Source: an uncultured Gammaproteobacteria bacterium | Lineage (GTDB): Bacteria; Patescibacteriota; Patescibacteriia; S139-126 | Direction of reading: 5' to 3' | DNA: 64,000 bases | NCBI GenBank assembly: GCA_964493305.1 | Contig: CAZBLW010000001.1 | Coordinates: 305,484-369,483, forward strand | Part shown: positions 5,346 to 35,701 of the stretch, piece after piece | Numbering within the stretch: position 1 is the first letter of the stretch | How the letters are laid out: the number at the start of each line of letters is the position of its first letter | The notes under the pieces: model-generated | The model's database searches: none | Told to the model about the DNA's origin: nothing | What the model saw: the letters and a program-made list of their open reading frames with translations, nothing else | Made by a program: the position numbers and the translations under genes

Positions 5346-5525
5346 ATGTGTTTTCAGTTACCAAAAAAAGTTATTGGGATTCGTGGCCATAAAGCCAAAC
5401 TAGCAGATGGCAGTTGGGTTGATTTGAGTTTAATGACCGAAGAGTGTGTAGTCGGTGATCATTTATTTGTAGCTGATAAATTTGCTGTTTCCAAAATAAG
5501 CAACCAAACAATAATTAATCAATAA
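5346..5525 (+). CDS. hypC: Hydrogenase maturation factor HypC (HupF/HypC family), 59 aa; too short for the ORF track to list it.
   Basis: Hand translation gives MCFQLPKKVIGIRGHKAKLADGSWVDLSLMTEECVVGDHLFVADKFAVSKI… The N-terminal MC(x)2(L)P and the GDhhhVh.hFA core match HypC. Confidence 0.7.
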   Translation: MCFQLPKKVIGIRGHKAKLADGSWVDLSLMTEECVVGDHLFVADKFAVSKISNQTIINQ

Positions 5526-5540
5526 AATTAATAAAAAAAT

Positions 5541-6437
5541 ATGCAGTTCAATACACGAGGTTGGATATTAGTAACTTTGACAGCTTTGATTAGCGGGTTG
5601 TCAATCTTTTTAAATAAATTTGGTGTTAGTACAATCGATGCAACTTTATTTACTGGTTTAAAAAATATTACTGTTGGAATTTTGTTTGCTGGTTTGATAT
5701 TTTATTCACCCCAACAAATTAATTGGCGAAATATTACCAAATCCCAGTGGGTAAAATTATTTTTTTTAGGTTTAATCGGTGGTAGCATACCCTTTGTATT
5801 ATTTTTTCACGGATTAAAATTGACATCTAGTTTACACGCAGGTTTTATTCATAAAACGCTATTTATTTATGTAGCTTTATTGGCTGTAATATTTTTAAAA
5901 GAGAAATTAACAAAATATTATGGATTTACCTTGCTGGCCATGTTGTTAGGTTTATTGGTTTTTTCTCAAGTTAAACCATTTATTTTAAATTATGGAGATT
6001 GGTTGGTTTTATTGGCCACGCTACTGTGGTCAATAGAAATTATTATTGCCAAAAAATTATTACATGATTTACCGGCCAATGTTGTAGCTTTGGCCAGAAT
6101 GTTTCTGGGTGGTATTTTGATTTGGTTTTATTTAATTGGACAAGGTGGTTATGAACAAATATTTAGTTTGAATTTTGTAGAATGGCGCTGGGTAGTTATT
6201 ACCTCGTTGTTATTGTTTGGTTATGTATACACTTTTTATCACGGTTTAAAATATATACCAGCTTCAGTCGCAACGGTTATCCTGACCATAGCGGCACCAA
6301 TTACCGCACTACTTAATTTTGGTTTTTTTAGTTCGATTATTAGTTCAGGTCAATGGTGGGGATTAGTAATAATTTTTATCAGTTTTTATTTGCTTAGCCG
6401 TCGTTATTTGACCAAGCAAATTTATGAACTCAAATAA
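5541..6437 (+). CDS. EamA/DMT-superfamily permease (10 TM, two EamA repeats).
   Basis: Two ~140-aa hydrophobic repeats of 5 helices each. Tightly packed between hypC and downstream genes. Confidence 0.75.
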   Translation: MQFNTRGWILVTLTALISGLSIFLNKFGVSTIDATLFTGLKNITVGILFAGLIFYSPQQINWRNITKSQWVKLFFLGLIGGSIPFVLFFHGLKLTSSLHAGFIHKTLFIYVALLAVIFLKEKLTKYYGFTLLAMLLGLLVFSQVKPFILNYGDWLVLLATLLWSIEIIIAKKLLHDLPANVVALARMFLGGILIWFYLIGQGGYEQIFSLNFVEWRWVVITSLLLFGYVYTFYHGLKYIPASVATVILTIAAPITALLNFGFFSSIISSGQWWGLVIIFISFYLLSRRYLTKQIYELK

Positions 6438-7182
6438 AATCGAAGTTTTACAAAAGATAAGACGACTTACTTTTCCCACCTATGATCAAATCACGCTTGA
6501 TCGGAAAGGTTTACAGGTTATCAATTATTTATTTTTAAATCCTGATTGCCAAGCGGATATTAAATTGGCAAGTCTAACAGGACCAATTATAAAATTGGCA
6601 TCACTGGGGCAACATATTATTACTGCTGCGCCTTCAACTTTAGCTAAATATGCTCAGAAACATAATATTAACCACTTACAGACGGGGGATATTTTACATT
6701 GTTTTGCTTTGGAACACGCACATGATCTTTCTGCAAATAAAATTGATATTAAATATAAACCGCATTATGCTTTAGCTCATTTACTTAATTTTTCCCAAGT
6801 AAAAAAGATAGACAGGTTGGCAAAACAAAGACTCGCCACCTTAGAAAGTAGATTGCCCTGGGGGAAAATTATTTTCAAGAAAGTATTTATTCCCAATGAT
6901 TTAAAAATCAGTGTTCAGGATTATGTTTACCATCATTTTGGGGTAGTAGTTGCCCGGGACGATAAATCTGAGTTAGCGCAGAAAATTTATCAAGAGCAAA
7001 TTAATCATTTACAAATTGCTACTTGGTTAAAAGAGACAATTAAAAAAAGTATTGTGATTGATTTTTCCAATGTAAATATTTTCCAACAAAATGTAGTTGA
7101 TAATATAATTCATCCACAAAAAGTTAAGCTGATCAGTAATCCCCAAGATATAGCTCAAGGTAAAATTAAATTTAAGAAATGA
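6424..7182 (+). CDS. Hypothetical protein (252 aa) with His/Cys-rich patches (HCFALEHAH, YHHF).
   Basis: Start overlaps the EamA gene by 14 nt and the stop overlaps the hycI-like gene by 4 nt, so it is translationally coupled into the hydrogenase accessory operon. Confidence 0.55.
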   Translation: MNSNKIEVLQKIRRLTFPTYDQITLDRKGLQVINYLFLNPDCQADIKLASLTGPIIKLASLGQHIITAAPSTLAKYAQKHNINHLQTGDILHCFALEHAHDLSANKIDIKYKPHYALAHLLNFSQVKKIDRLAKQRLATLESRLPWGKIIFKKVFIPNDLKISVQDYVYHHFGVVVARDDKSELAQKIYQEQINHLQIATWLKETIKKSIVIDFSNVNIFQQNVVDNIIHPQKVKLISNPQDIAQGKIKFKK

Positions 7183-7553
7183 AAATTTCAGTTTTTGGCA
7201 ACCCCAATTTACCCCAAGATTCATTGGCTTTTCGTTTGGTGCCTCATTTACAGCAATTAATCCCTGGTGCTGAATTTATTCATCAAGATCCTCAAGAGCA
7301 GATTATGCCATCTGACGAGCCAGTGTGGTGGATTATTGATGTTGTAAAAGGTATTGCACAAGTTAAGGTTATAGAAAATTTGGATGAGTTAAAAGATAAA
7401 CGGCGAGTTAGCATGCATGATTATGATTTATCTACTGAACTAAAATTAATCAAAAAAATATATCCTCAGCTGGTATTGAGGATAATTGGCGTTCCAGAAA
7501 AAGGGGATATTAAGTTATTAGCCAAGCAAGTAGCTACTATTCTAACCAGTTGA
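7179..7553 (+). CDS. Hydrogenase maturation endopeptidase (HycI/HybD/HoxW family).
   Basis: MKISVFGNPNLPQDSLAFRL aligns to the HycI N-terminus (LLCVGNSMMGDDGAG). WWIIDVVKG corresponds to the conserved Asp block, and SMHDYDL to the His block (THNMPL). The 3' end converges on and overlaps the large-subunit gene. Confidence 0.6.
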   Translation: MKISVFGNPNLPQDSLAFRLVPHLQQLIPGAEFIHQDPQEQIMPSDEPVWWIIDVVKGIAQVKVIENLDELKDKRRVSMHDYDLSTELKLIKKIYPQLVLRIIGVPEKGDIKLLAKQVATILTS

Positions 7554-8829
7554 CCTCCAAAAAATGCGAGGCACAACTCATACAAGGATCATAAGCCCTA
7601 ATGATTTTTTCGCACGCTAGAGCTAATTCTTTTTTTGGTTGCTTGAGGTTTTTTTGTATATATTCGGCTATATCCAACTCAATTGTTATTTGATTTTGTC
7701 CAGTAGGAACAATAACCTCACCTGTGGTTACTATACCTTTGTCGTCGATAGTAAGTTTGTGATATAAGGTTCCTCTGGGAGCTTCTACGACTCCCACTCC
7801 AGTAGCTGCTCGTAGTTCTAGTTTATCTGGTTTGGCTGGTTGAAAATTATTGGTTTTTAAAATACTGATCGTATCGTCGATTGAATGTAAGATTTCAATA
7901 GCTTGCGCTAGATTATTATGATAGGCATTATCTGAGGGAAAAACTTTTAAAGCTTGGGCGCAATCTTTTTTGGTACGATCATTTAGCGCTTGTCGGTTGA
8001 GATTGATTCTAGCTAGAGCCCCGACTCGATAAGGTTGTCCAGCAAAAGTATAGGCTGAGGCTTGAGAATAGGGTAGTACCACATGCTCTAAATGATTACG
8101 GAATTCTGCTTCCTCAGCGATTACGCCATTCATATCACAGAGTTTTCCTTCTAAGTAAGAATAGTCATCATTTTTTAAGGCGGCATAATTAGTCGGTCTA
8201 ATTAATTGGTCAGGTGCATTTAAAAACAATTCAATTAGTCTCAACACGGCTGGTCTCACTTTTTCCATTTCCTCTATTAGGGCGGTTTTACCGTTGTTAT
8301 CAGGGATTTTTAAAAATCCACCCGGAACTGGAAAAGGTGCGTGGACACTACGCCCGGCGGTGTATTTGGCCAAATTATTTCCCGCACTTTTTACGGCAAA
8401 AGTGTCATGAAGAAGTTGATGTTGTAATTTGTCGTGTTCATCAAATTCCAGTAGGGAATCTTTTTGAAATAAGTCTGGTAAAACAAATACATAGAGATGT
8501 AAAGCGTGATCTCTAATGATCAATCCATGATAAGTCAGAGTGCGAAGTATTTTAGTTTGTGCGGAGGGCACATAGTTTAAGGTTTTTTCTACCGCTTCGA
8601 TACTGGCGATTAAATGGGCGATGCTACAAGTACCACAAATTCTGGATAATAACTGAGGAACAGCCGCGATAGGTTTTCCTTGAATTGCCTGAGTATAAAA
8701 TCTTTTATAATCTTGAACTTTAAATTTTACATATTCAACTTTACCATTAGTTACTTTGACATCCAATCCAGCGGAACCCTCCACTTTGGTGATTTCATTG
8801 ATATTAAGATCAAAGTCAATAAGGTGCAT
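7537..8829 (-). CDS. [NiFe]-hydrogenase large (catalytic) subunit.
   Basis: N-terminal L1 motif RICGTCSIAH (RxCGxCxxxH) and C-terminal L2 motif DPCMSCASH (DPCxxCxxH), with 8 residues after the His. 430 aa. Confidence 0.85.
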   Translation of the reverse strand: MHLIDFDLNINEITKVEGSAGLDVKVTNGKVEYVKFKVQDYKRFYTQAIQGKPIAAVPQLLSRICGTCSIAHLIASIEAVEKTLNYVPSAQTKILRTLTYHGLIIRDHALHLYVFVLPDLFQKDSLLEFDEHDKLQHQLLHDTFAVKSAGNNLAKYTAGRSVHAPFPVPGGFLKIPDNNGKTALIEEMEKVRPAVLRLIELFLNAPDQLIRPTNYAALKNDDYSYLEGKLCDMNGVIAEEAEFRNHLEHVVLPYSQASAYTFAGQPYRVGALARINLNRQALNDRTKKDCAQALKVFPSDNAYHNNLAQAIEILHSIDDTISILKTNNFQPAKPDKLELRAATGVGVVEAPRGTLYHKLTIDDKGIVTTGEVIVPTGQNQITIELDIAEYIQKNLKQPKKELALACEKIIRAYDPCMSCASHFLEVNWLE

Positions 8830-9327
8830 TTATTTAATATTAAATTGTTTAAACATTTGTTCTACTAGTTCAATAAACTTTTGTTCATTCATGGGACAAC
8901 CTGGTACCTTAGCATCAACCTTTACTATCTCCTCTAATTTTCTTACTTTTTCACCATAATTGAATTTTTCCAATAAGAAATCAATTGATTTTCTTACTTC
9001 CTGAGGAAATTCGTTGCGTTGGGCTGATGGCATACCAGTTACTGCACACGCTCCAACAGCCACCAATACTTTAGCTTTAGCTCTAATTTTTTTTAATTCT
9101 TTAGCTTTGGCCTCAGAAGCAATAGCTCCTTCCACAAAAACCACATCCATATCAGTCAGGGAGTTTTTTGATTGTAATACTTTGGCATGTTTAAAGTCCA
9201 AATAGGGCAACCAGTCTTGCCAATGTTCATTTAAAATTTCAGTAAATAAAACCGTACTATCCTCACAACAACTAAATGTAAACCAGCCAACCCTAAGCTT
9301 TTTAGTTTTTGCAGAAGTTTTTTTCAT
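8830..9327 (-). CDS. [NiFe]-hydrogenase small subunit, minimal form with a single proximal [4Fe-4S] cluster.
   Basis: Cysteine pattern FSCCEDS…GACAVTG…PGCPM. Only 165 aa, with no medial or distal cluster cysteines and no Tat signal. The stop abuts the large-subunit ATG (TAAATG). Confidence 0.8.
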   Translation of the reverse strand: MKKTSAKTKKLRVGWFTFSCCEDSTVLFTEILNEHWQDWLPYLDFKHAKVLQSKNSLTDMDVVFVEGAIASEAKAKELKKIRAKAKVLVAVGACAVTGMPSAQRNEFPQEVRKSIDFLLEKFNYGEKVRKLEEIVKVDAKVPGCPMNEQKFIELVEQMFKQFNIK

Positions 9328-9334
9328 TGTTTAT

Positions 9335-9363
9335 ATTATAACATTTTATACTGACTATGTCAT
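9335..9363 (-). promoter_or_regulatory. Sigma-70-like promoter for the hydrogenase operon. The -10 lies 7 nt from the ATG, suggesting a leaderless mRNA.
   Basis: On the minus strand: ATGACA-17 nt-TATAAT-ataaaca-ATG. There is no Shine-Dalgarno sequence. Confidence 0.4.
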
Positions 9364-9438
9364 TGACAAAATGTTTTATTTTTGCCAGTATGTATGATTA
9401 ATAGTTATTTAGCAAATAAAAAAAATGAGGAGGAGAAT

Positions 9439-9798
9439 ATGTTAAGAATAGAAAATCTAATCAAAGCATTACCAACTGCAACTTATACTGGTTATATGTC
9501 TATTACCAATATTTCCCAAGCCAGTTGGAAAAATTATTTTTCTAAACCATTAGATGTCGATATATTAGGTGAATTACTATATTTGATAGCAATAGATATG
9601 CACGAGGTAGCTGCCCAAAAAGTAGAAGAAGGAGAAATGTATAGTTATTTACAGAAAGGAAAAGAGTTATTGGATAAATTGGCTGATATCGGAAAATCAT
9701 TTGGTTTGGTGATTGATAAATATCACAATAAAATAATTTTTTGTGCACTTCTAGGTGAACAACCTTTTCGGATAGACAATATTCAGTGGCACAGATAA
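9439..9798 (+). CDS. Hypothetical protein. The likely start is the internal Met preceded by GGAGGAG; the track ORF starts at 9382.
   Basis: Strong RBS aggaggagaatATG; divergent from the hydrogenase operon. Confidence 0.5.
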   Translation: MLRIENLIKALPTATYTGYMSITNISQASWKNYFSKPLDVDILGELLYLIAIDMHEVAAQKVEEGEMYSYLQKGKELLDKLADIGKSFGLVIDKYHNKIIFCALLGEQPFRIDNIQWHR

Positions 9799-9817
9799 TT
9801 CTGTGCCGCTTTTTTTA
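9785..9817 (+). terminator. Rho-independent terminator.
   Basis: AGTGGCACAG-ataatt-CTGTGCCGCT (10 bp including one GU pair) plus T7. The stop codon lies in the loop. Confidence 0.65.
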
Positions 9818-24207: not shown

Positions 24208-24492
24208 ATGGATAAACCAAAAAAAATTGATCCTTGGTGGGGACCAGGTTTAGCTGTATTTGCTGAGGTCACGGGTTGGATAGTAGGGCCAATTATAGTT
24301 GCTCTGTATTTAGGGCGCTATTTTGATACTAAAAACAATTCAGAACCTTGGTTTTTTCTTAGTTTTACTGTTTTTGCCTTTTTTATATCTACTTATGGCA
24401 TTATCAAAATAGCCAATCGGTTTATCAAGGCAGCAGAAGAAGAAATTAAAAAAAGAAACAACAATAACGACAATAAAAATAAATCACAATAA
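24208..24492 (+). CDS. AtpZ/AtpI-like small membrane protein preceding the F-ATPase genes.
   Basis: 94 aa with 2 TM, located immediately upstream of atpB. Confidence 0.45.
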   Translation: MDKPKKIDPWWGPGLAVFAEVTGWIVGPIIVALYLGRYFDTKNNSEPWFFLSFTVFAFFISTYGIIKIANRFIKAAEEEIKKRNNNNDNKNKSQ

Positions 24493-24497
24493 ATTTA

Positions 24498-25424
24498 ATG
24501 ATTGAAAGTATAGACAACAATCAAGCAAATCATGAAAGCGTAACCAACACTACAGTTGGTGATACTAATACAGATCAAGCTAGTGACCATCAGGTAGGTG
24601 AAACAAAAGTTGCTGACGAACACGTTAGTCATGAAATTACCCTTTATGCCGAGCCAATATTTCAAATTGGTAAGTTTACGGTTACCAATTCTTTATTGTC
24701 TTCTTGGTCAGTGGTGATTGTTTTAATTATTATCGCTATAGTTTTAGGCAAAAGTATAAAAAAAATCCCCCAAGGCTTACAAAATGTTTTTGAAATGATT
24801 ATTGAAAAAGCGGTGGAAATGATGGATTCGGTAACTCATGATTCCAATAAATCAAAAAAGATTTTTCCTTTTGTTTTTACAATTTTTATATTTATTCTCT
24901 TAAATAATTGGTTAGGATTAATTCCCGGAGTTGGGTCAATCGGTTTTATTGAAACAAGTCACGGTCATAGTGCTTTTATACCTTGGTTTAGAGGTGCTAC
25001 AGCTGATTTGAATACTACTTTGGCTTTGGCAATATTTTCCGTAATCGCTGCTAATTTTTTTGGAGTTTTGACAGTTGGCGGTTGGAATTTTTTGAATAAA
25101 TTTATTAACTTGAAAGCTTTGGCCGAAATTCCCGGTAAAGTTGTTAAAGAACCGGCTATCGTATTTGTTAACCCAATAAAATTTTTTGTTGGTTTAATTG
25201 AAGTAGTGGGTGAAGTAGCCAAAGTCGCATCCTTATCATTTAGGTTGTTTGGTAATGTGTTTGCCGGAGAAGTATTACTTGCTTCCATGGCAGCTATTTT
25301 TGCCTTTGCAGTGCCAATCCCTTTTATTTTTTTGGAAATTATCGTAGGCATAATTCAAGCGCTGATTTTTGCCATGTTGACATTGGTTTATTTTACGATT
25401 GCCTCAACAGCTGAGGAACATTAA
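24498..25424 (+). CDS. atpB: ATP synthase Fo subunit a.
   Basis: Carries the conserved Arg block SLSFRLFGNVFAGEVLL. Confidence 0.85.
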   Translation: MIESIDNNQANHESVTNTTVGDTNTDQASDHQVGETKVADEHVSHEITLYAEPIFQIGKFTVTNSLLSSWSVVIVLIIIAIVLGKSIKKIPQGLQNVFEMIIEKAVEMMDSVTHDSNKSKKIFPFVFTIFIFILLNNWLGLIPGVGSIGFIETSHGHSAFIPWFRGATADLNTTLALAIFSVIAANFFGVLTVGGWNFLNKFINLKALAEIPGKVVKEPAIVFVNPIKFFVGLIEVVGEVAKVASLSFRLFGNVFAGEVLLASMAAIFAFAVPIPFIFLEIIVGIIQALIFAMLTLVYFTIASTAEEH

Positions 25425-25499
25425 TTTTATAAATAATTATTAATAATTAATTTGTTTATTGTCACCGACTATAAATAAAAAATAAATTAAGTCGAGTAG

Positions 25500-25736
<237 letters not shown>

Positions 25737-25745
25737 TTTTTTATC

Positions 25746-25774
25746 GACGAAAGATTGATTTTTCAGTCTTTCGT
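25746..25774 (+). promoter_or_regulatory. Stem-loop between atpE and atpF with no U-tract; possible processing or attenuation structure.
   Basis: ACGAAAGA-12 nt-TCTTTCGT. Confidence 0.3.
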
Positions 25775-25808
25775 AATTAAAAAATTATTTTTTAAATAAA
25801 ATTATTTT

Positions 25809-26303
25809 ATGGAAGAATTAGTAAAAACATTTTATATTGATTGGAAATTATTATTGGCCCAACTAGTAAATTTCTTTATCGTGTTGGGAGTTTTATGGAA
25901 ATTTGCTTTAAAGCCATTGCGTCAAACTATGGATAAGAGAAGCGCCGAGATTGCTAAAAGTTTAGATCAGGCTAAAGAAATTGAACAAAAACTTAGTGAG
26001 GCGGATAAAACCAAAGTAGAAACAATACTGCAAGCCAAAAAAGAATCACAAACAATTATTGAACAAGCCCAAAAAGACGCGGACGTTTTACGTGCTAAGA
26101 AAATGACTGAGTTGAAAGTGGAAATGGAAAAAATCGTAGTCCAAACAAAAGCCAGTTTAACCAGTGAAAAAGAACAGATGTTACGAGATATAAAATCAGA
26201 AGTGGCTGATTTGGTTATTGCCGCCAGCAGCAAAATTTTAGAAAAAAACATTACTGGTGAGGATAATAAAAAAATAATTAAGTCGATTATTGAGAAAGTC
26301 TAA
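25809..26303 (+). CDS. atpF: ATP synthase Fo subunit b.
   Basis: N-terminal TM followed by a long charged helix; operon position. Confidence 0.8.
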   Translation: MEELVKTFYIDWKLLLAQLVNFFIVLGVLWKFALKPLRQTMDKRSAEIAKSLDQAKEIEQKLSEADKTKVETILQAKKESQTIIEQAQKDADVLRAKKMTELKVEMEKIVVQTKASLTSEKEQMLRDIKSEVADLVIAASSKILEKNITGEDNKKIIKSIIEKV

Positions 26304-26310
26304 ATAGATT

Positions 26311-26712
26311 ATGAAACAGATTGCCCCTAAAAAATATGCCATAAGTTTGTATGAAGTACTCGAGAGTACTGATGCCTCCCAACAGCAAGCTATACTAGCT
26401 TCTTTTGTTCAATTATTAGTTAGGCACAAAATGTTAGCTAAGCTTGATAAAATTATTAATTATTTTAAGTTATATGCTGATGAGCAGGCTAATATCAAAA
26501 CAGTAAAGTTAAATGTAGCTCAGCCACTTGATCAGACGTCTCGTCAGAATATTATTAATCATTTAGAGAAAATATTGAAATATAAAATTGAGATTGTTGA
26601 GGAAACACAGCCCGATTTAATCGGCGGAGTAATGATTGAATATGATGATATTCGTATTGATGGGAGTATCAAAAAACAACTAACAGTAATGACTAACCAA
26701 TTTAAATCATAA
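26311..26712 (+). CDS. atpH: ATP synthase delta (OSCP) subunit, short form (133 aa).
   Basis: Operon position; the C-terminal block LIGGVMIEYDDIRIDGSIKKQL is typical of delta. Confidence 0.7.
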   Translation: MKQIAPKKYAISLYEVLESTDASQQQAILASFVQLLVRHKMLAKLDKIINYFKLYADEQANIKTVKLNVAQPLDQTSRQNIINHLEKILKYKIEIVEETQPDLIGGVMIEYDDIRIDGSIKKQLTVMTNQFKS

Positions 26713-26742
26713 ATAAAAATTTTTAAATAATAAAATTATTTT

Positions 26743-28284
26743 ATGTCGAATAAAGATTATATTATCGATCAACTAAAAAAACAGATTATTGATTTTAAAA
26801 GCGCCGCTATCAAAGAGAAAGTTGGCACCGTTGAAGAGATCGGTGACGGTGTGGCTAGAATATCTGGTCTTTCCGAAGTTATGGCTTCAGAAATGATTGA
26901 ATTTTCTGGTGGTAAATACGGCGTAGCGTTGAATTTGGAAAATGATACTATTGGCGCTATTGTGTTGGGTGAATCAGAAAGTATCAAAGAGGGTGATACA
27001 GTAAAAAGCACTGGTAGAATTTTAGCCGTGCCAGTAGGTGAGCAATTGATTGGCAGAGTAGTAGATCCCTTGGGTCAACCGATTGATAATAAAGGTGAGA
27101 TTAAAACCGATCATTATTATCCGGTAGAAAAAATCGCTCCTCGGGTTATTACCCGTCAAAAAGTTAGTACGCCACTACAAACAGGCGTCAAGTCAATTGA
27201 TTCGATGATTCCAATTGGTCGGGGACAAAGAGAATTGATTATTGGCGACAGACAAACCGGAAAAACTGCTTTAGCCATTGATACAATTATTAACCAAAAG
27301 GGTAAAGGGGTGATATGTATTTATGTGGCTATAGGACAAAAAGAATCTAAAATTGCTCGTATTGTTGCTGATTTAGAAAAATATGGAGCAATGGATCATA
27401 CTATCGTGGTTTTAGCTGGAGCGTCTGATTCGGCTTCTTTGTCATTTATTGCTCCTTACGCTGGTTGCGCGATGGGTGAATATTTTATGGATCAAGGTAA
27501 AGATGTCTTGGTAGTATATGATGATTTATCAAAGCACGCTTGGGCTTATCGTCAGATTTCTTTACTGTTAAAAAGGCCACCAGGACGTGAAGCTTACCCT
27601 GGAGACGTATTCTATCTTCATTCACGCTTATTGGAACGAGCAGCTAAATTAAATAAAGATTATGGAGGCGGATCTTTGACTGCTTTACCAATAATTGAAA
27701 CTCAAGCGGGTGATATTTCTGCTTATATTCCAACCAATGTAATTTCTATTACTGATGGTCAGATATTTTTGGAGTCAGATTTATTTTATCAGGGTATAAG
27801 GCCGGCATTAAACGTTGGTTTGTCAGTTTCTCGAGTTGGTAGCGCCGCACAAATTAAAGCCATGAAAAAAGTGGCTGGAAAATTGAGATTAGATCTGGCT
27901 CAATATCGAGAATTGGCGGCTTTTGCTCAATTTGGTTCGGATTTAGATGAGGTGACTAGAAATCAAATTGAACGAGGTAAAAGATTGACGGAAATTTTGA
28001 AGCAAGGCCAATATGAACCGATGCCAGTGGCTAATCAGGTAGCGATTTTATATGCCGCAGTAAATGGTTTACTTGATGATGTTTCAGTTGAAAGAATAAA
28101 AGAATTTGAAGGAGCTTTCCATACTTTTATGAATAATTCTCATAGTAAATTGTTGGAGTCGATTGTAAAAATTGGAGAAATAACTGAAGACATTGATCAA
28201 CAGTTACGTCAAGCTATAGAAGATTTTAAAAAAATGTCTGACTTTAGTGTCTCGGCTACAGAAGACGAAGCAGTAATTAATTAA
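26743..28284 (+). CDS. atpA: ATP synthase F1 alpha subunit.
   Basis: [10 protein letters not shown]-loop, plus the DDLSKHA and [32 protein letters not shown] blocks. Confidence 0.95.
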
Positions 28285-28304
28285 TTTGGTTTTTAATTTT
28301 ATTT

Positions 28305-29228
28305 ATGCCTTTAGCAACTAGAGAAATAAAAAGAAGAATTCGTTCAGTTTCTAGTACTCGCAAAATCACCAAAGCGATGGAATTGGTAGCTGGTGCTAAA
28401 ATGCGACGAGCAGTTAAGGCGGTATTGCAAACCCGAAGTTATGCCAATGCAGCTTGGGAGGTAGTAAAAAATTTATCTGATAAAACTGATACCAGTAAAC
28501 ATCCACTTTTGCAGAAGAGGGAACGCGTGAAAAAAGTAGGAGTAATTTTAATAGCATCCAATCGTGGCTTGTGTGGTAGTTTTAATCGGGAAATTGTTGA
28601 GGTGGTGGCTAATTACATAAAAAATCATAAAAATGAAAATATTAATATTGAGGCTGAGGTGTTTTTGATGGGTAATCGCGGTAAAGATATTATGTTTCGT
28701 CATGGCCATGAGGTAGTTGCGGAATTTACTAAATTTGATGTAACTACTAGGGTAAGCGAAGTTACGCCCTTGGCACAAATGGCGATACAGGACTATATTT
28801 CTGGCAAGTACGACAAAATTGTTATGGCTTATACAGATTATAAATCAGCTATTGTCCAAGAACCCCGTATTCGTAAATTACTACCAATTGATCGACAAGA
28901 TGATGAATTGGGTTATGTCGGTAAAAATGATAAGAATGCATTTCTGGCAGACCAGATAGCTTTTGAAAAAAATGAGTATTTATTTGAACCATCACCTGAT
29001 GTGGTGTTGGAACAGATGTTACATCGTTTAGTAGAATTACAGATTTATCAAGCTTTGTTGGAATCAAATGCTTCGGAACACAGTGCTAGAATGATGGCTA
29101 TGCGTAATGCCTCTGATGCAGCACTTGATATGATTGATAGTTTGACTATGACTTTCAACCGCGCCCGACAACAAAATATAACCACTGAACTGGCAGATAT
29201 TTCAGCCGGTCGCGCAGCAGTTGAATAA
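28305..29228 (+). CDS. atpG: ATP synthase F1 gamma subunit.
   Basis: IKRRIRSVSSTRKITKAMELVAGAKMRRA and the C-terminal ITTELADISAGRAAV. Confidence 0.9.
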   Translation: MPLATREIKRRIRSVSSTRKITKAMELVAGAKMRRAVKAVLQTRSYANAAWEVVKNLSDKTDTSKHPLLQKRERVKKVGVILIASNRGLCGSFNREIVEVVANYIKNHKNENINIEAEVFLMGNRGKDIMFRHGHEVVAEFTKFDVTTRVSEVTPLAQMAIQDYISGKYDKIVMAYTDYKSAIVQEPRIRKLLPIDRQDDELGYVGKNDKNAFLADQIAFEKNEYLFEPSPDVVLEQMLHRLVELQIYQALLESNASEHSARMMAMRNASDAALDMIDSLTMTFNRARQQNITTELADISAGRAAVE

Positions 29229-29236
29229 TTTTATAA

Positions 29237-30652
<1,416 letters not shown>

Positions 30653-30677
30653 TTATTGCCAGTAGCTATTTATAGTT

Positions 30678-31112
30678 ATGAAAAAAATTAAATTTGAAAT
30701 AATCACTCCCGAAAGAGTTGTCTATAAAGCTGAAGTTGATAGTATTACTATTCCTACCTCAACCGGAGAAATTACTGTTTTGCCAGATCATATTCCTTTA
30801 ATTTCTTTGTTGGTGCCAGGCGAGTTACATGTGAAAATTGGCAATGAAGAAGAATTAATGGCAGTGTCTGGGGGATTTATTGAAGTTCGCAAGGATAAAG
30901 TGGTAATTCTTTCTGATACCGCTGAACTGGCTCACGAAATTGATTTAGCAGCCGTGGAGGAAGCAAAAGCTAGAGCAGAAAAATTATTGCGAGAAAAACA
31001 GACTGAAAAGATTGACTATGTAGCCTTGGCAGCTAATTTAGAAAGAGAATTAGCTCGCCTCAAAGTGGGCAATAAATATAAACGTATTAGACGGCAAAAA
31101 CCAACCGAATAA
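30678..31112 (+). CDS. atpC: ATP synthase F1 epsilon subunit.
   Basis: Beta-sandwich domain plus helical hairpin, and operon position. Confidence 0.85.
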   Translation: MKKIKFEIITPERVVYKAEVDSITIPTSTGEITVLPDHIPLISLLVPGELHVKIGNEEELMAVSGGFIEVRKDKVVILSDTAELAHEIDLAAVEEAKARAEKLLREKQTEKIDYVALAANLERELARLKVGNKYKRIRRQKPTE

Positions 31113-32587: not shown

Positions 32588-32632
32588 GATTACACCTGAA
32601 TTTATTTGATTGTTAATGATAGGAATAAGATA

Positions 32633-32660
32633 ATTTATCATAAAAATAAAGTTTTGTCAA
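32633..32660 (-). promoter_or_regulatory. Sigma-70 promoter with an extended -10.
   Basis: On the minus strand: TTGACA-16-tgATAAAT. Confidence 0.45.
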
Positions 32661-32689
32661 TCATATCTAAGGATGTTAAAATAAGTATT

Positions 32690-35600
32690 ATGGAGATAAA
32701 TCTAGATAATTTAAATAATGAGCAAAAACAGGCAGTGACTCATGGTGATGGCCCCTTGTTAATCGTTGCGGGCGCTGGCACTGGTAAAACCACAGTCATT
32801 ACTCAACGGATAAACTGGTTGATTCAAGAAAAAAAAATAGCCACTGATCAAATATTAGCTTTGACTTTTACGGAAAAAGCCGCTGGAGAAATGGAAGAAA
32901 GGATTGATAAGGCTTTACCTTATGGTTATGTGGAATTATGGGTTTCAACTTTTCATGCTTTTTGCGAAAGGATTTTGCGATTACACGCTCTTGATATCGG
33001 ATTGTCAACAAATTTTAAATTACTAGATCAAACTCAAGGGTGGTTGCTGATTAAAAAAAATTTGGAAAAATTTGCACTTGATTATTATCGTCCTTTAGGT
33101 AATCCGACTAAATTTATCCATGCCCTATTGCAACATTTTTCACGATGTAAAGATGAAGAAATATACCCCCAAGATTATTTGCGTTATGCTGAGGAGTTGA
33201 AAATAAATCTTGATGATATGGAGGGAAGTAAAGGAAATTCTAGAATTAAGAATAAAGAATTAAGAATTAAAGGTAAAAACAATGAGATTAGTGAACAAGA
33301 AATTGATAGGTTGAATGAAGTGGCCAATGCTTATCACACTTATCAACAAATATTGTTGGCAAATAATTCATTGGATTTTGGTGATTTGATAAATTACACT
33401 TTAAAATTATTTAAAACCAGACCGCAAATTCTTCAAAAATATCAGCAACAATTTAAGTATGTTTTAGTTGATGAATTTCAGGATACCAATTGGGCGCAAT
33501 ATGAATTGATTAAATTGTTAGCCAGACCTAAAAACAATATCACCGTAGTCGGTGATGATGACCAATCTATTTATAAATTTCGGGGAGCATCAGTTTCCAA
33601 TATTTTAAATTTTAAAAAAGATTTTCCTAAGGCAAGGGAGGTATTTCTCCAAACCAATTACCGCAGTGGGCAAGAAATTTTAGATTTAGCATACAATTTT
33701 ATCCAACTCAATAACCCCGACAGGTTGGAAATAAAACTCTCTACTCGTAGTCAGAAATTATCCAAACAACTGCTAGCTTATCATCAGCCAGTCAGTATGG
33801 TTAGTTATGATTTTTATGATTCATTGGAGCAAGAGGTAGAAAAAGTGGTGGATAATATTATGACCTTAAAAGAACAAGACCAAGAAACAAGTTGGAATGA
33901 TTTTGCTATCTTGGTGCGAGCTAATGATAGTGCTACTGAATTTATTCAGGAATTAGAGAATCGACAAATACCTTTTCAATTTTTAGCTTCCCGGGGGTTA
34001 TATTTTAAGCCGGTTATTTTGGATATAATCAATTATCTCCGTTTACTTGATGATTATCGGGAATCACCCTCGTTGTATCGCATACTGAATTTACCGGTTT
34101 TGAAAATTACTGAACAACAAATAATAAATTTAAATTATTGGTCCGGTCGCAAAGCCTGGTCTTTATTTGAAACCTTGCGTAATATTGCCACTATCAACAA
34201 CGTCAGCCCAGAAACCATAAAGGAAGTAAATAAATTGTTAGCTTGGATAGATAGACACACCAAATTAGCCAAGGATAAACCAGTAACCAAAGTAATAATG
34301 TCTTTTTTAGAAGACACTGGTTACAGTCAATATTTATCTAAACTTGAACCCAACAAAGCTCAAAATGCGATTGGTTATTTGAATCAGTTTTTAACTAAAG
34401 CCCGAGACTTTGAACGCAGTTTAGTTGATAATAGGGTTAGTGATTTTTTGGATGAGTTGGAAATGGAATTGGAAGCTGGGGAGCAAGGTAGTTTGTCTTG
34501 GCAGTTTGATACCGGACCAGAAGCTGTAAGTATAATGACTGTTCATGGAGCTAAAGGTTTGGAATTTAAGTATGTATTTATACCCAATTTAGTTGATAAA
34601 CGTTTTCCGACAATTGAGAGAAAAGAACCAATTGCCTTGCCTGATAAATTGATTAAGGATATTTTGCCCGAGGGGGATGCTCATATACAAGAAGAAAGAC
34701 GTTTGTTGTATGTGGCTATCACCCGAGCCAGGAGTGGTTTGTTTTTGTCAGGTGCCAAAGATTATGGGGGAGTGCGTGAAAAAAAACCCAGTCAGTTTTT
34801 GTATGAGTTAGGCATGGTCAGTAATCAAAACCAGACAAATAAAAAAGATACAAAAAAAACAGTAAGTAAGGTTAATAAAAATAGCTCCTCAAATTCGCCA
34901 GTAAGATCTTACGAACTACAACTACCTAAAACTTTTTCTTATAGTCAAATTAGTTCTTTTTTAGCCTGTCCTTTACAATATAAATTTGCCTATATTTTAA
35001 AAATACCGGTAAAAGGTAAATATACTTTTAGTTTTGGCAGTACAATTCATCAGACTTTGCAAAGGTTTTTTGAGCTGGTAAAATCCAGCGTGACTTTAAA
35101 ACAAACAGATTTATTTAATAAATCGGAAAATAACGCCAATAAATTACCTACCCTTGATGATTTAAGGCAAATTTATGAACAAGCCTGGATTGATGATTGG
35201 TATGATTCTAAATTACAACAGGAACAGTATAAGAAAAAAGGCAAATTAGCTTTAGAAAAATTTTATCAAGATTGGGCAAAAGAAAAAAATATTCCTGAAA
35301 GATTGGAAAACAGATTTAAATTGCAAGTGGGCGAGTTTGTTTTATCTGGTGCCATTGACCGGGTTGATAGATTGGCCGACAATAGTTTAGAAATAATTGA
35401 TTATAAAACTGGCAGTGCTAAGGAAAAATTGGAAACAGACAACAAGCGGCAGTTATTGATTTATCAGCTAGCGGCTAACCAGCATTTAAAAGAACAGGTA
35501 GGAAAACTTACTTATTATTATATCGAAGAGGGGAAAAAACTTTCCTTTTTAGGCAGTGATCAGGATTTAACAGATCTTAAAGAAAAGATTGTTACCACTA

Positions 35601-35701
35601 TTAAGGAAATGAAAAAAAGTGACTTTGCTCCCACTCCCAGTCCTCAGTTGTGTAAGTTTTGCGATTTCAATAAAATTTGTGAATATTCACAGGCGAAGTG
35701 A
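32690..35701 (+). CDS. UvrD/PcrA-type SF1 helicase fused to a C-terminal RecB/Cas4-like PD-(D/E)XK nuclease with a four-Cys cluster (AddA-like helicase-nuclease).
   Basis: AGAGTGKTT, VLVDEFQDTN, VVGDDDQSIYKFRGA, TVHGAKGLEF, VAITRAR. C-terminus has GAIDRVD…EIIDYKTG and Cys at FLACP plus CKFCDFNKIC. The start is taken at MEINLDNL; the track ORF begins at 32606. Confidence 0.85.
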   Translation: MEINLDNLNNEQKQAVTHGDGPLLIVAGAGTGKTTVITQRINWLIQEKKIATDQILALTFTEKAAGEMEERIDKALPYGYVELWVSTFHAFCERILRLHALDIGLSTNFKLLDQTQGWLLIKKNLEKFALDYYRPLGNPTKFIHALLQHFSRCKDEEIYPQDYLRYAEELKINLDDMEGSKGNSRIKNKELRIKGKNNEISEQEIDRLNEVANAYHTYQQILLANNSLDFGDLINYTLKLFKTRPQILQKYQQQFKYVLVDEFQDTNWAQYELIKLLARPKNNITVVGDDDQSIYKFRGASVSNILNFKKDFPKAREVFLQTNYRSGQEILDLAYNFIQLNNPDRLEIKLSTRSQKLSKQLLAYHQPVSMVSYDFYDSLEQEVEKVVDNIMTLKEQDQETSWNDFAILVRANDSATEFIQELENRQIPFQFLASRGLYFKPVILDIINYLRLLDDYRESPSLYRILNLPVLKITEQQIINLNYWSGRKAWSLFETLRNIATINNVSPETIKEVNKLLAWIDRHTKLAKDKPVTKVIMSFLEDTGYSQYLSKLEPNKAQNAIGYLNQFLTKARDFERSLVDNRVSDFLDELEMELEAGEQGSLSWQFDTGPEAVSIMTVHGAKGLEFKYVFIPNLVDKRFPTIERKEPIALPDKLIKDILPEGDAHIQEERRLLYVAITRARSGLFLSGAKDYGGVREKKPSQFLYELGMVSNQNQTNKKDTKKTVSKVNKNSSSNSPVRSYELQLPKTFSYSQISSFLACPLQYKFAYILKIPVKGKYTFSFGSTIHQTLQRFFELVKSSVTLKQTDLFNKSENNANKLPTLDDLRQIYEQAWIDDWYDSKLQQEQYKKKGKLALEKFYQDWAKEKNIPERLENRFKLQVGEFVLSGAIDRVDRLADNSLEIIDYKTGSAKEKLETDNKRQLLIYQLAANQHLKEQVGKLTYYYIEEGKKLSFLGSDQDLTDLKEKIVTTIKEMKKSDFAPTPSPQLCKFCDFNKICEYSQAK
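33238..33275. repeat. Heptad-repeat element inside the UvrD-like helicase coding sequence (TCTAGAA TTAAGAA TAAAGAA TTAAGAA TTAAAGG, translating to SRIKNKELRIKGK).
   Basis: Same (C/G)TAGAA(TTAAGAA)n structure as the other copies. Lies in a variable surface region between helicase motifs. Confidence 0.55.

What the first reader, a model, noticed from the sequence alone, without database searches (positions are those of the whole stretch)
5346..9363. Compact two-subunit [NiFe]-hydrogenase locus with a minimal small subunit and no adjacent electron-transfer partner
The minus strand encodes a 165-aa small subunit followed by a 430-aa large subunit. The small subunit has only the proximal-cluster cysteines (FSCCEDS…GACAVTG…PGCPM). 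The large subunit has both NiFe-binding motifs (RICGTCSIAH and DPCMSCASH) and only an 8-residue C-terminal tail. The two genes abut as TAAATG. A HycI-like maturation protease gene converges on this pair with a 17-nt 3' overlap. Upstream, in one tightly coupled unit, lie hypC, a DMT/EamA permease and an unknown His/Cys-patch ORF. No diaphorase (HoxFU, Hyd beta/gamma, MvhD/G-type) subunits, no ferredoxin-like medial or distal clusters, and no hypABDEF are present in the 64 kb window. A single-cluster small subunit is the HoxY / group 4 style, yet the membrane subunits of group 4 are also absent. The physiological electron partner is therefore not evident from this window.
Basis: partly seen in the sequence, partly recalled or inferred. 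Interest (0 to 1): 0.72.

Follow-up and report, generated by a model that had tools for sequence, protein, structure and literature searches.

The report
CPR 'hyd2' two-subunit NiFe hydrogenase
This is a real, strongly conserved two-gene nickel-iron hydrogenase with its helper genes from an ultra-small (Patescibacteria/CPR) bacterium; it belongs to a clade described in 2020 ('hyd2'), whose electron partner and maturation route are still unproven.

Summary
These are the 165-aa small subunit with four Cys, the 430-aa large subunit with intact L1/L2 motifs and an 8-residue tail, the TAAATG junction, the convergent protease with a 17-nt overlap, and the coupled hypC-EamA-unknown-protease operon. 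The 64 kb holds no hypABDEF, diaphorase or ferredoxin gene.

The locus is not new in kind. It matches the CPR-specific, group-3b-related 'hyd2' clade of Jaffe et al. 2020 (truncated small subunit of about 164 aa, no co-located beta/gamma subunits, hypC nearby, function uncertain). At least 593 species representatives in the genome collection carry a relative.

The follow-up added four points.
1. In many relatives a single-cluster ferredoxin gene and a rubredoxin-reductase-type FAD/NAD(P)H oxidoreductase gene sit directly upstream of the small-subunit gene, often translationally coupled. A 2-oxoacid:ferredoxin oxidoreductase and an ADP-forming acetyl-CoA synthetase are often adjacent. Ferredoxin is therefore the likely electron partner.
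2. The 124-aa ORF has the HycI/HybD endopeptidase fold.
3. The 252-aa unknown ORF is a new N-terminal domain fused to a HypC-like domain. It occupies the gene slot that DUF6390 fills in relatives, always paired with the EamA permease.
4. The proximal cluster is bound by a conserved tandem Cys-Cys, as in complex I cluster N2.

Some relatives carry canonical hypCDEF, so the family is a genuine [NiFe] enzyme.

The parts
8830..9327 (-). Small subunit (165 aa) carrying only the proximal [4Fe-4S] domain. The ligands are C20, C21, C94 and C144. The tandem-Cys motif is FTFSCCEDS.
   Evidence: PF01058 at E 3.5e-21. It aligns to residues 3-144 of the 261-aa SHI delta subunit 9nez_A. In 65 relatives the four Cys are the only conserved Cys, the motif is F[ST]F[ST]CCED[SN], and the median length is 167 aa.
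7537..8829 (-). [NiFe] large (catalytic) subunit of 430 aa, related to group 3b. L1 is RICGTCSIAH (63-72) and L2 is DPCMSCASH (414-422). The 8-residue C-terminal tail is FLEVNWLE.
   Evidence: PF00374 at 97 bits. The best solved relatives are Thermococcus/Pyrococcus SHI alpha (5yxy_A E 2e-56; 9nez_D). The best NCBIfam families are ShyA and HydA. L1, L2, E17-G18 and A350-P351-R352-G353 are invariant in 20 relatives. dN/dS is 0.02-0.04.
7179..7553 (+). Divergent HycI/HybD-type maturation endopeptidase (124 aa). It is convergent with the large-subunit gene and overlaps its 3' end by 17 nt.
6424..7182 (+). 252-aa accessory protein found only in Patescibacteria. It has a new helical N-terminal domain (1-120), a HypC-like OB domain with helix (122-208) and a short tail. 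Invariant Cys/His residues are C42, C93, H98, H119 and H171.
5541..6437 (+). EamA/DMT-family permease (298 aa), translationally coupled to the 252-aa ORF.
   Evidence: PF00892 at E 6e-34. It is found near hyd2 in 51 of 81 loci. It lies directly upstream of DUF6390 in 35 of 35 metagenome loci centred on DUF6390.
5346..5525 (+). Divergent HypC-type chaperone (59 aa). It starts MCFQLP, so Cys2 is present, but the His51-equivalent is absent.
   Evidence: PF01455 at E 1.1e-5, 25.9 bits against a cut-off of 28.5. TIGR00074 at E 6e-5. Orthologs at the head of the same operon in relatives hit PF01455. The His51 position is Ala here; it is Q/A/T/V in the 11 other HypC of this cluster type.
9335..9363 (-). 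Sigma-70-like promoter (ATGACA-17-TG-TATAAT) immediately upstream of the small-subunit start codon.
   Evidence: 11 of 12 consensus matches with an extended -10, the best site in the region. This is a consensus match only, and the total number of sites did not exceed the shuffle controls.

Best explanation
The locus encodes a member of the CPR/Patescibacteria-specific 'hyd2' clade of group-3b-related cytosolic [NiFe]-hydrogenases.

Shown:
- The enzyme is a heterodimer. The 430-aa catalytic subunit has all four Ni-Fe cysteines, the proton-relay Glu and the active-site Arg.
- The 165-aa small subunit is a group-3b delta subunit cut back to its proximal [4Fe-4S] domain.
- In that domain the usual CxxC pair is replaced by a conserved tandem Cys-Cys (C20, C21), which together with C94 and C144 gives four ligands.
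- The convergent operon supplies four helper proteins: a HypC-type chaperone, an EamA permease, a fusion protein with a HypC-like domain, and a HycI/HybD-fold endopeptidase.

Inferred, maturation:
- The endopeptidase removes the 8-residue tail after His422 once nickel is in place.
- The remaining Hyp functions (HypD/E/F and nickel insertion) are supplied from elsewhere in the genome, or partly by the permease and fusion-protein pair.

Inferred, function:
- With only one cluster, the small subunit must pass electrons directly to a soluble carrier.
- The best candidate is a small single-cluster ferredoxin. In many relatives this ferredoxin is encoded with a rubredoxin-reductase-type FAD/NAD(P)H oxidoreductase in one operon with the hydrogenase, beside a 2-oxoacid:ferredoxin oxidoreductase and an ADP-forming acetyl-CoA synthetase.
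- The enzyme would then vent electrons from 2-oxoacid fermentation as H2. Through ferredoxin and its reductase it could also equilibrate H2 with NAD(P)H, which would functionally replace the beta/gamma subunits of classical group 3b.
- In this genome the partner genes are not linked to the hydrogenase.
For: Identity of the enzyme:
- The best solved relatives are the SHI alpha and delta subunits. The best NCBIfam families are ShyA/HydA and HydD.
- L1, L2, E17 and the APRG Arg are invariant in the family.
- The features Jaffe et al. give for hyd2 are all met. The host is a CPR bacterium, with the closest relative a Ca. Paceibacter at 93% identity. The small subunit is 165 aa against their mean of 164. 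No beta/gamma subunit is co-located. A hypC-like gene lies nearby.

The enzyme is functional:
- dN/dS is 0.02-0.05.
- The large subunit is the most conserved protein of the syntenic neighbourhood, at 91-93% identity against 47-93% for its neighbours; one neighbour reaches 93% in L011.
- Canonical hypC-hypD-hypE-hypF genes lie adjacent to hyd2-type enzymes in L015, L020 and L094.

Electron partner:
- The FAD oxidoreductase (Pyr_redox_2 plus Rubredoxin_C; best PDB matches are rubredoxin, putidaredoxin and ferredoxin reductases) lies within 10 kb in 32 of 79 loci.
- The single-cluster ferredoxin (Fer4_15) lies within 10 kb in 24 loci, OFOR in 17 and ACD in 16.
- The gap from the reductase gene to the small-subunit gene is -8 to +7 nt in 9 loci. 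The gap from the ferredoxin gene to the reductase gene is -32 to +18 nt in 11 loci.
- L094 carries the complete string Fd-FdR-small-large-protease-hypCDEF.
- No polyferredoxin motif (CxxCxxCxxxC) occurs in any ORF of about 85 loci.

Protease. The two-Asp-plus-His triad matches the description in PMC12134894.

Tandem Cys: conserved in about 56 of 60 relatives. A tandem pair ligates complex I cluster N2 (PMC8042128).
Against: - No ferredoxin, reductase, OFOR, ACD or Fe-S assembly gene lies in this 64-kb window or next to the three closest relatives L011-L013. For this organism the partner is therefore extrapolated from relatives at 54-59% identity.
- The ferredoxin/reductase link rests on synteny only, and Jaffe et al. 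judged similar observations inconclusive.
- HypD/E/F were not found in the window. A contig-length cross-match of the best 120 HypD homologs gave no hit to the source contig, which is inconclusive.
- The direction of catalysis (H2 evolution or uptake) cannot be read from sequence.
- The equivalence of the tandem Cys-Cys to the N2 cluster is by analogy only. Ligation by both Cys is not shown.
Confidence: 0.62

Rival explanations
1. The permease, the HypC-like fusion protein (DUF6390 in most relatives, the 252-aa protein here) and the His-less HypC form a lineage-specific maturation module. It would replace part of the canonical Hyp machinery: either Fe(CN)2CO assembly by HypD/E/F or nickel delivery by HypA/B. 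On this view genomes like this one mature the enzyme without those genes.
For: - eamA lies directly upstream of DUF6390 in 35 of 35 loci centred on DUF6390. A hyd2 large subunit lies within 10 kb in 25 of 35, and HypD/E in none.
- The 41 DUF6390-type and 5 unk252-type hyd2 loci never have hypD/E within 10 kb. The four hydrogenase loci in genomes known to have hypDEF (L015, L020, L094, L176) never have DUF6390 or EamA nearby.
- The stand-alone HypC lacks the His51-equivalent in 12 of 12 clusters of the permease type, counting the window's own. It keeps that His in 3 of 3 hypDEF-type clusters.
- The HypC-like domains of DUF6390 and of the 252-aa protein keep that His. They carry a Cys (DUF6390) or a His (H119 here) at the position of HypC Cys2.
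- Both proteins have invariant Cys/His sets.
Against: - Whether HypD/E/F are absent from the whole genome was not tested. hyp genes can lie 27 kb away.
- Only four hypDEF-positive cases were seen.
- Neither protein resembles HypD in profile-profile comparison.
- No known chemistry makes cyanide and CO ligands without HypE/F.
- The module could simply be an extra nickel-uptake and chaperone system working alongside canonical Hyp proteins.
Confidence: 0.13
2. The enzyme is a classical tetrameric group-3b (sulf)hydrogenase whose beta and gamma subunits are simply encoded elsewhere in the genome.
For: The large subunit is closest to the SHI/SHII alpha subunits. CPR 'hyd1' enzymes do have beta/gamma subunits (PMC7304191).
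Against: - The small subunit lacks the whole C-terminal domain of about 100 residues, which in the SHI delta subunit carries the further clusters leading to beta. This truncation is conserved at a median of 167 aa.
- No ORF with a CxxCxxCxxxC motif lies within 10 kb of about 85 relatives.
- Many relatives have a different NAD(P)H module, ferredoxin plus a rubredoxin-reductase-type flavoprotein, in the operon.
Confidence: 0.05
3. The enzyme is an H2-sensing or regulatory hydrogenase, or a decaying relic. In either case it would need no metabolic electron partner.
For: No partner genes and no hypDEF lie in 64 kb. The small subunit is minimal.
Against: - Purifying selection is very strong and conservation exceeds that of neighbouring housekeeping genes.
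- A dedicated protease and chaperone are conserved.
- No kinase or regulator is adjacent in the window or recurrent in relatives.
- Operon coupling to ferredoxin/reductase genes and adjacency to OFOR/ACD point to metabolism.
- From general knowledge, known sensory (group 2b) enzymes keep three clusters.
Confidence: 0.05
4. The hydrogenase passes electrons directly to the FAD/NAD(P)H oxidoreductase, or to another non-ferredoxin acceptor such as thioredoxin-like proteins, polysulfide or O2-detoxifying rubredoxin systems. Ferredoxin would not be the mediator.
For: The reductase gene, not the ferredoxin gene, is the one translationally coupled to the small-subunit gene. Some loci have the reductase without a detected ferredoxin. 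The reductase's closest solved relatives include NAD(P)H:rubredoxin oxidoreductases.
Against: Ferredoxin lies immediately upstream of the reductase gene in 11 or more loci. The adjacent OFOR is a ferredoxin-reducing enzyme. Neither the ferredoxin nor the reductase gene is in this window.
Confidence: 0.12

Closest known systems
[quoted passage not shown] 2020, BMC Biol 18:69, PMC7304191)
   Same: The host is a CPR bacterium and the large subunit is related to group 3b. The small subunit is consistently truncated (their mean 164 aa; 165 aa here). No beta/gamma subunit is co-located. A hypC-like family lies nearby. In a subset of loci a PF07992 flavoprotein and a small Fe-S protein lie nearby.
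   Different: Nothing essential differs; this locus is a member. Not described in that paper: the tandem-Cys motif, the protease, the obligatory EamA plus DUF6390/252-aa pair, the translational coupling of the reductase gene, and the OFOR/ACD neighbourhood. This particular subclade has the 252-aa protein instead of DUF6390 and has no linked ferredoxin or reductase gene.
Pyrococcus/Thermococcus sulfhydrogenase SHI/SHII (group 3b; PDB 5yxy, 9nez)
   Same: The catalytic subunit has the same length and aligns end to end (E 2e-56). It has the same L1/L2 motifs and a short C-terminal tail. The small subunit aligns to the proximal-cluster domain of the delta subunit.
   Different: No beta or gamma subunit. 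The delta subunit's C-terminal cluster domain is missing. The CxxC of the proximal cluster is replaced by CC. NCBIfam equivalog cut-offs are far from met (226 against 700 bits).
HoxY-type single-cluster small subunits (group 3d) and group-4 small subunits
   Same: The small subunit carries a single [4Fe-4S] cluster.
   Different: The sequence is closer to the group-3b delta subunit than to HoxY (E 1.9e-12 against 4.9e-10 and 1.7e-7). No HoxFU diaphorase and no membrane subunits are present.
Complex I subunit NuoB/PSST/NDUFS7, cluster N2
   Same: Both belong to the same superfamily (PF01058). Both have a [4Fe-4S] cluster bound by a tandem Cys-Cys plus two distant Cys (PMC8042128).
   Different: Here the domain partners a true Ni-Fe catalytic subunit, not a quinone site. 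The flanking motif is CCED[SN], not the motif recalled from memory for NuoB (CCxxE). Ligation by both Cys is inferred, not shown.
HycI/HybD hydrogenase maturation endopeptidases (PF01750; PDB 2e85, 1cfz, 5ija)
   Different: The protein is shorter (124 aa against 148-162 aa). The window protein has no Pfam hit, and a family profile did not reach any solved protease by sequence.
HypC/HybG/HupF chaperones (PF01455)
   Same: The 59-aa ORF has the MC-x-x-x-P start and an OB-fold-sized body. The 252-aa protein and DUF6390 each contain a HypC-like domain with the GD[WY]V..H.G strand.
   Different: The 59-aa protein lacks the His51-equivalent and scores below the Pfam cut-off. In the fusion proteins the HypC-like domain is internal, behind a new N-terminal domain. 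The Cys2 position is His in the 252-aa family.

Membership tests
[NiFe]-hydrogenase large subunit (PF00374) | Score above the Pfam gathering threshold | tested here: met
   97.1 bits against 25.8.
[NiFe]-hydrogenase large subunit (PF00374) | Four Ni-Fe cysteines in L1 (RxCGxCxxxH) and L2 (DPCxxCxxH) | tested here: met
   RICGTCSIAH at 63-72 and DPCMSCASH at 414-422. They are invariant in 20 relatives and align to the SHI alpha motifs.
[NiFe]-hydrogenase large subunit (PF00374) | Bound Ni-Fe(CN)2CO cofactor and H2 turnover | not testable with these tools
   Indirect only. Canonical hypCDEF genes lie next to hyd2-type enzymes in L015, L020 and L094.
Group 3b (NADP-coupled / sulfhydrogenase) | Large subunit closest to characterised group-3b alpha subunits | tested here: met
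   SHI alpha gives E 2e-56. The next groups give 5.6e-44 (3c), 6.4e-37 (3d) and 9.5e-31 (3a). The top NCBIfam families are ShyA and HydA. No full phylogeny was run.
Group 3b (NADP-coupled / sulfhydrogenase) | Tetramer with a beta (Fe-S) subunit and a gamma (FAD/NAD(P), 2Fe-2S) subunit | tested here: not met
   Neither subunit is in the window. No CxxCxxCxxxC ORF lies within 10 kb in about 85 related loci. Whole genomes were not searched.
Group 3b (NADP-coupled / sulfhydrogenase) | Delta subunit of about 240-260 aa with clusters beyond the proximal one | tested here: not met
   165 aa with four Cys only. It aligns to residues 3-144 of the 261-aa delta subunit.
CPR hyd2 clade (Jaffe et al. 2020) | CPR/Patescibacteria host | tested here: met
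   The closest loci are Ca. Paceibacter and other Patescibacteria MAGs. The window has 30-37% GC and typical CPR gene content.
CPR hyd2 clade (Jaffe et al. 2020) | Small subunit consistently truncated (mean 164 aa) | tested here: met
   165 aa here, with a median of 167 aa over 65 relatives.
CPR hyd2 clade (Jaffe et al. 2020) | No co-located beta/gamma subunit; a hypC-like family nearby | tested here: met
   for beta/gamma. hypC lies at 5346-5525.
CPR hyd2 clade (Jaffe et al. 2020) | Placement inside the hyd2 branch of their large-subunit tree | not tested
   The supplements held as text carry no hyd1/hyd2 labels. One genome of their set (Uhrbacteria RIFCSPLOWO2_02_FULL_49_11, locus L033) has a relative at 59% identity with the same architecture.
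HycI/HybD endopeptidase (PF01750) | Sequence match to the family model | tested here: inconclusive
   The window protein has no Pfam hit. NF045519 gives E 0.005. 20 of 32 relatives hit PF01750, best E 4e-5. The family profile found no solved protease.
HycI/HybD endopeptidase (PF01750) | Alpha-beta-alpha fold of the family | tested here: met
HycI/HybD endopeptidase (PF01750) | Two Asp and one His as metal ligands | tested here: met
   D14, D54 and H80 are invariant in 61 sequences. The criterion comes from PMC12134894. Positional equivalence to the HybD ligands Glu16, Asp62 and His93 is inferred from motif spacing.
HypC (PF01455) | N-terminal Met-Cys and a score above threshold | tested here: inconclusive
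   The MCFQLP start is present. The score is 25.9 bits against a cut-off of 28.5, and 22.8 against 48 for TIGR00074.
HypC (PF01455) | Conserved His51 (E. coli numbering) | tested here: not met
   The position is Ala in 'VGDHLFVAD'. All 12 HypC of permease-type clusters, the window's included, lack it. The 3 of 3 HypC beside hypDEF have VLVHVG. The criterion comes from PMC12134894.
DUF6390 (PF19927), for the 252-aa ORF | Match to the family model or profile | tested here: not met
   No Pfam hit. hhalign gives only a weak local match in the HypC-like strand, E 0.002-0.003 and probability 10-14%. The gene slot is the same.

The most novel reading that the evidence does not exclude
Ultra-small CPR bacteria may mature their hyd2 hydrogenase with a lineage-specific module. 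The module consists of a His-less HypC, an EamA-family permease and a fusion protein with a HypC-like domain (DUF6390, or the 252-aa protein here). It would substitute for canonical HypD/E/F or HypA/B functions, giving a previously unknown route for building or loading the Ni-Fe cofactor. The tandem-Cys proximal cluster would make this minimal enzyme the hydrogenase closest in design to the complex I N2 module.
Probability: 0.13. Interest if true: 0.8.

Novelty: new member of a known kind. Interest (0 to 1): 0.4.

Why it matters
hyd2-type enzymes occur in at least 593 species representatives of the genome collection. They are among the few redox enzymes of CPR bacteria, so their partner decides whether these symbionts make or consume H2.

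The comparative evidence points to a three-part system of ferredoxin, ferredoxin reductase and hydrogenase next to OFOR and ACD. That is a fermentative H2 valve, and it can be tested with recombinant proteins.

If the permease/DUF6390/252-aa module really replaces part of the Hyp machinery, it would change the view that HypA-F are universally required. It would also give a minimal set for heterologous [NiFe]-hydrogenase production. As it stands, the locus is a well-preserved example of a published but biochemically uncharacterised clade.

Tried and rejected
- Pfam scans of the 124-aa and 252-aa ORFs gave no hits, even at E 10.
- A profile of the protease family searched against PDB sequences gave nothing. 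The fold search then settled the question.
- BLASTP and hhalign of the 252-aa family against DUF6390 gave no convincing homology. I do not file the 252-aa ORF under DUF6390.
- hhalign of both families against a HypD alignment gave nothing. The idea that they are HypD-like is rejected.
- A structure search of the 252-aa model gave only OB-fold and HypC matches. The N-terminal domain had no match. The afdb50 library was unavailable.
- I tried to find hyd1/hyd2 labels in the Jaffe supplements; none are held as text.
- I tried to detect HypD in the source genome by matching contig lengths among the 120 best HypD homologs. There was no match to 557,988 bp, which is inconclusive because the list stops at 57% identity.
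It was redone with library hits.
- Literature searches for DUF6390 and for hyp genes in CPR found nothing relevant.
- The group-4 and group-3d readings were rejected. No membrane or HoxFU genes are present, and the best similarity is to group 3b.

Full report
**Observation.**

ORF listing confirms the architecture. On the minus strand lie a 165-aa ORF (8830-9327) and a 430-aa ORF (7537-8829), joined as TAAATG. On the plus strand, converging on them, lie four coupled ORFs:
- a 59-aa ORF at 5346-5525;
- a 298-aa ORF at 5541-6437;
- a 252-aa ORF at 6424-7182;
- a 124-aa ORF at 7179-7553, whose last 17 nt overlap the 3' end of the large-subunit gene.

Pfam assigns PF01058 to the small subunit, PF00374 to the large subunit and PF00892 (EamA) to the permease.

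The small subunit has exactly four cysteines: C20, C21, C94 and C144. The large subunit has RICGTCSIAH and DPCMSCASH, followed by eight residues.

The rest of the window is housekeeping: ATP synthase, aminoacyl-tRNA synthetases, DnaE, ThyA/DHFR, a ClpB-like ATPase and others. It holds no Hyp signature motif and no CxxCxxCxxxC motif in any frame. It also has no tblastn match to the partner families found in relatives.

**What the enzyme is.**

The large subunit aligns end to end with the alpha subunits of Thermococcus/Pyrococcus sulfhydrogenase I (5yxy_A E 2e-56; 9nez_D). The match is clearly better than to group 3c, 3d or 3a enzymes. The best NCBIfam families are ShyA and HydA, far below their equivalog cut-offs.

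The small subunit aligns only to residues 3-144 of the 261-aa SHI delta subunit. It is therefore a group-3b delta subunit reduced to the proximal-cluster domain.

In 20 relatives at 56-79% identity, L1, L2, the VEG glutamate and the APRG arginine are invariant.

**It is a known clade.**

Jaffe et al. 2020 (PMC7304191) describe two CPR-specific group-3b-related clades.
- 'hyd1' has co-located beta/gamma subunits.
[quoted passage not shown] It has no co-located beta/gamma subunit, has a hypC-like family nearby, and its 'function remains uncertain'.

The window matches each of these criteria. A scan of one genome per species found at least 593 relatives. The best 80 are nearly all Patescibacteria, and the closest is a Ca. 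Paceibacter MAG at 93% identity. Their tree labels were not available as text, so placement in their tree is untested. I therefore call this a new member of a known kind.

**The enzyme is functional.**

Against the three closest genomes, dN/dS is 0.02-0.05 for both subunits and 0.13-0.20 for the four accessory genes. The large subunit is 91-93% identical, while syntenic neighbours are mostly 57-85% identical and one reaches 93% in L011.

In other hyd2-bearing Patescibacteria, canonical hypC-hypD-hypE-hypF genes lie beside the hydrogenase (L015, L020). The fullest case is a 478-kb Pacebacteria contig (L094). It reads SufB-NifS-NifU-...-ferredoxin-FAD oxidoreductase-small(166 aa, FSFSCCEDST)-large-protease(convergent)-hypC-hypD-hypE-hypF. 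The family is therefore a genuine [NiFe] enzyme.

In GCA_964436855.1, hypCDEF lie about 27 kb from the hydrogenase on one contig. Their absence from this 64-kb window therefore says little about the genome.

**Electron partner.**

I called ORFs in 80 related loci with 10-kb flanks and clustered them. The recurrent neighbours are:
- the small subunit, in 65 loci;
- the protease, in 53 loci, convergent;
- EamA, in 51 loci;
- DUF6390, in 41 loci;
- a 415-aa flavoprotein, in 32 loci;
- an 89-aa ferredoxin, in 24 loci;
- NifU and NifS, in 21 and 20 loci;
- a two-subunit 2-oxoacid:ferredoxin oxidoreductase, in 17 loci;
- an ADP-forming acetyl-CoA synthetase, in 16 loci.

Pfam identifies the flavoprotein as Pyr_redox_2 plus the Rubredoxin-NAD+-reductase C-terminal domain, and the ferredoxin as Fer4_15/Fer4_13. 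The flavoprotein's best solved relatives are rubredoxin, putidaredoxin and dioxygenase-ferredoxin reductases.

The flavoprotein gene ends -8 to +7 nt from the small-subunit start in nine loci. The ferredoxin gene abuts the flavoprotein gene in eleven loci. No ORF with a polyferredoxin motif occurs in any locus.

The simplest reading is as follows. The single-cluster small subunit exchanges electrons with a soluble ferredoxin. That ferredoxin is reduced by OFOR during 2-oxoacid fermentation, and the acetyl-CoA synthetase then conserves ATP. The ferredoxin is linked to NAD(P)H by the flavoprotein. This would be a modular substitute for the beta/gamma subunits.

Jaffe et al. had noticed a PF07992 family and a small Fe-S family near some hyd2 loci but left the matter open. 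The coupling distances and the OFOR/ACD context strengthen the case.

For this window's own subclade (window, L011-L013), none of these genes is linked to the hydrogenase. For this organism the partner is therefore an extrapolation.

**Accessory genes.**

1. *The 124-aa ORF.* It has no Pfam hit, and a family profile did not reach any solved protease by sequence. Three lines of evidence still identify it.
   - 20 of 32 relatives hit PF01750 weakly.
   - G7, D14, D54, H80 and D81 are invariant in 61 sequences.

   Two Asp and one His are the proposed nickel-sensing ligands of these proteases (PMC12134894). The family has 537 representatives at 50% identity.
2. *The 59-aa ORF.* It is a HypC-type protein with Cys2 but without the His51-equivalent.
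3. *The 252-aa ORF.* It belongs to a Patescibacteria-only family of 33 clusters, none with a functional name. Invariant residues are C42, C93, H98, H119 and H171.
   - Its model (pLDDT 92.9) has a helical N-terminal domain with no structural match. This is followed by an OB domain plus helix.
   - Profile comparison with HypC (E 4e-4) puts H119 at the position of HypC Cys2. It also aligns QDYVYHHFG with the HypC strand GDWVLVHVG.
4. *DUF6390.* In most relatives the same gene slot holds DUF6390 (PF19927).
   - Its C-terminal part aligns with HypC at E 1e-5 and 82% probability. An invariant Cys sits at the Cys2 position.
   - The two families are not demonstrably homologous outside that strand. 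Neither resembles HypD.
5. *The EamA pairing.* In 35 metagenome loci centred on DUF6390, eamA is always directly upstream. A hyd2 large subunit lies within 10 kb in 25 of them, and hypD/E in none.

Conversely, the hydrogenase loci of the four genomes seen with hypDEF lack EamA and DUF6390. Their HypC is canonical (VLVHVG) in the three cases where it was read. All 12 HypC of permease-type clusters, the window's included, lack that His.

This dichotomy is the basis of the novel reading. It does not prove that hypDEF are absent from permease-type genomes.

**Tandem cysteines.**

Where the SHI delta subunit has S-C-Y-G-C, the window has C-C-E-D-S. The motif F[ST]F[ST]CCED[SN] is conserved in about 56 of 60 relatives, and the four Cys are the only conserved ones.

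A strained tandem Cys pair ligates cluster N2 in the homologous complex I subunit (PMC8042128). The parallel is by analogy only, and its effect on potential or pH dependence is untested.

**Verdict.**

The object is an already published clade of uncertain function.

The most likely mechanism is a ferredoxin-linked, minimal cytosolic [NiFe]-hydrogenase that serves fermentative redox balance. It would be matured by HypC, a dedicated endopeptidase and Hyp proteins encoded elsewhere. A lineage-specific pair of permease and HypC-like fusion protein has an unknown, probably metal-handling, role.

Interest is moderate. The clade is known, but its partner and maturation remain open and are now testable.

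Noticed in passing
window 9335-9363 (-): A strong sigma-70-like promoter with an extended -10 (ATGACA-17-TG-TATAAT, 11/12). It ends 8 nt before the small-subunit ATG at 9327, so the hydrogenase mRNA may be leaderless or nearly so.
   Followed up: no
window 7461-7484 (-): A terminator-like hairpin plus T-run lies 53 nt past the large-subunit stop, inside the coding region of the convergent protease gene. The convergent 3' overlap of the two genes (14-32 nt) is conserved in 26 of 34 related loci.
   Followed up: partly
window 7537-8829 compared with L011-L013: The hydrogenase large subunit (91-93% identity) is more conserved than nearly all syntenic housekeeping neighbours: ClpB-like 75-82%, GlyRS 84-86%, RarA 83-85%. 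The accessory genes diverge much faster (57-69%).
   Followed up: partly
L020, L094, L095 compared with L009, L011, L012, L031, L044, L051, L065, L072, L075, L076, L080 and window 5346-5525: There are two kinds of HypC. Those beside hypDEF keep the canonical VLVHVG histidine. Those heading EamA-DUF6390/252-aa operons have Q/A/T/V there.
   Followed up: partly
L035-L037, L050, L053, L054, L057, L079, L083, L086 (just downstream of the large subunit, same strand): A 140-170-aa ORF related to the HypC-like C-terminal part of DUF6390 sits directly after the large-subunit gene, in most of the loci that also carry OFOR/ACD. It has no Pfam hit.
   Followed up: no
L060 (JAVZBY010000001.1) and the hits: A hyd2-type locus occurs in a MAG labelled Woesearchaeota. 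The nearest relatives of the Patescibacteria HypD include many DPANN archaea. This suggests gene exchange between CPR and DPANN, or binning errors.
   Followed up: no
L012, L013, L016, L020-L022, L051, L072 and others (record titles): Many species-representative MAGs that carry this Patescibacteria-type locus are titled 'uncultured Gammaproteobacteria', 'Bdellovibrionales', 'Methanosarcinales' or 'Oscillospiraceae'. The record titles are not reliable taxonomy.
   Followed up: no
L015 8042-12457 and L020 8938-10281: In hypDEF-type Moraniibacteria loci, a heavy-metal-associated-domain protein (about 445 aa) lies a few kb from the hydrogenase. In L015 a P-type ATPase-like ORF of 1025 aa also lies there. 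Both assignments rest on inspection of the N-terminal CxxC motif only. They are possibly metal supply. They were not scanned against Pfam.
   Followed up: no
window 9382-9798 (+): A 138-aa ORF (TTG start; 134 aa in public gene calls) runs divergent from the small-subunit gene and has a terminator-like hairpin at its end (9785-9810). It has no Pfam or NCBIfam match, and homologs occur only in the two closest genomes at 47-50% identity.
   Followed up: partly
window 24208-31112, 32606-35701 and 35786-37240: A complete F-type ATP synthase operon, an AddA-like UvrD/PD-(D/E)XK helicase-nuclease and a Na+/H+ exchanger share the window. They are ordinary genes. They show that this small genome keeps ion-gradient machinery.
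   Followed up: no
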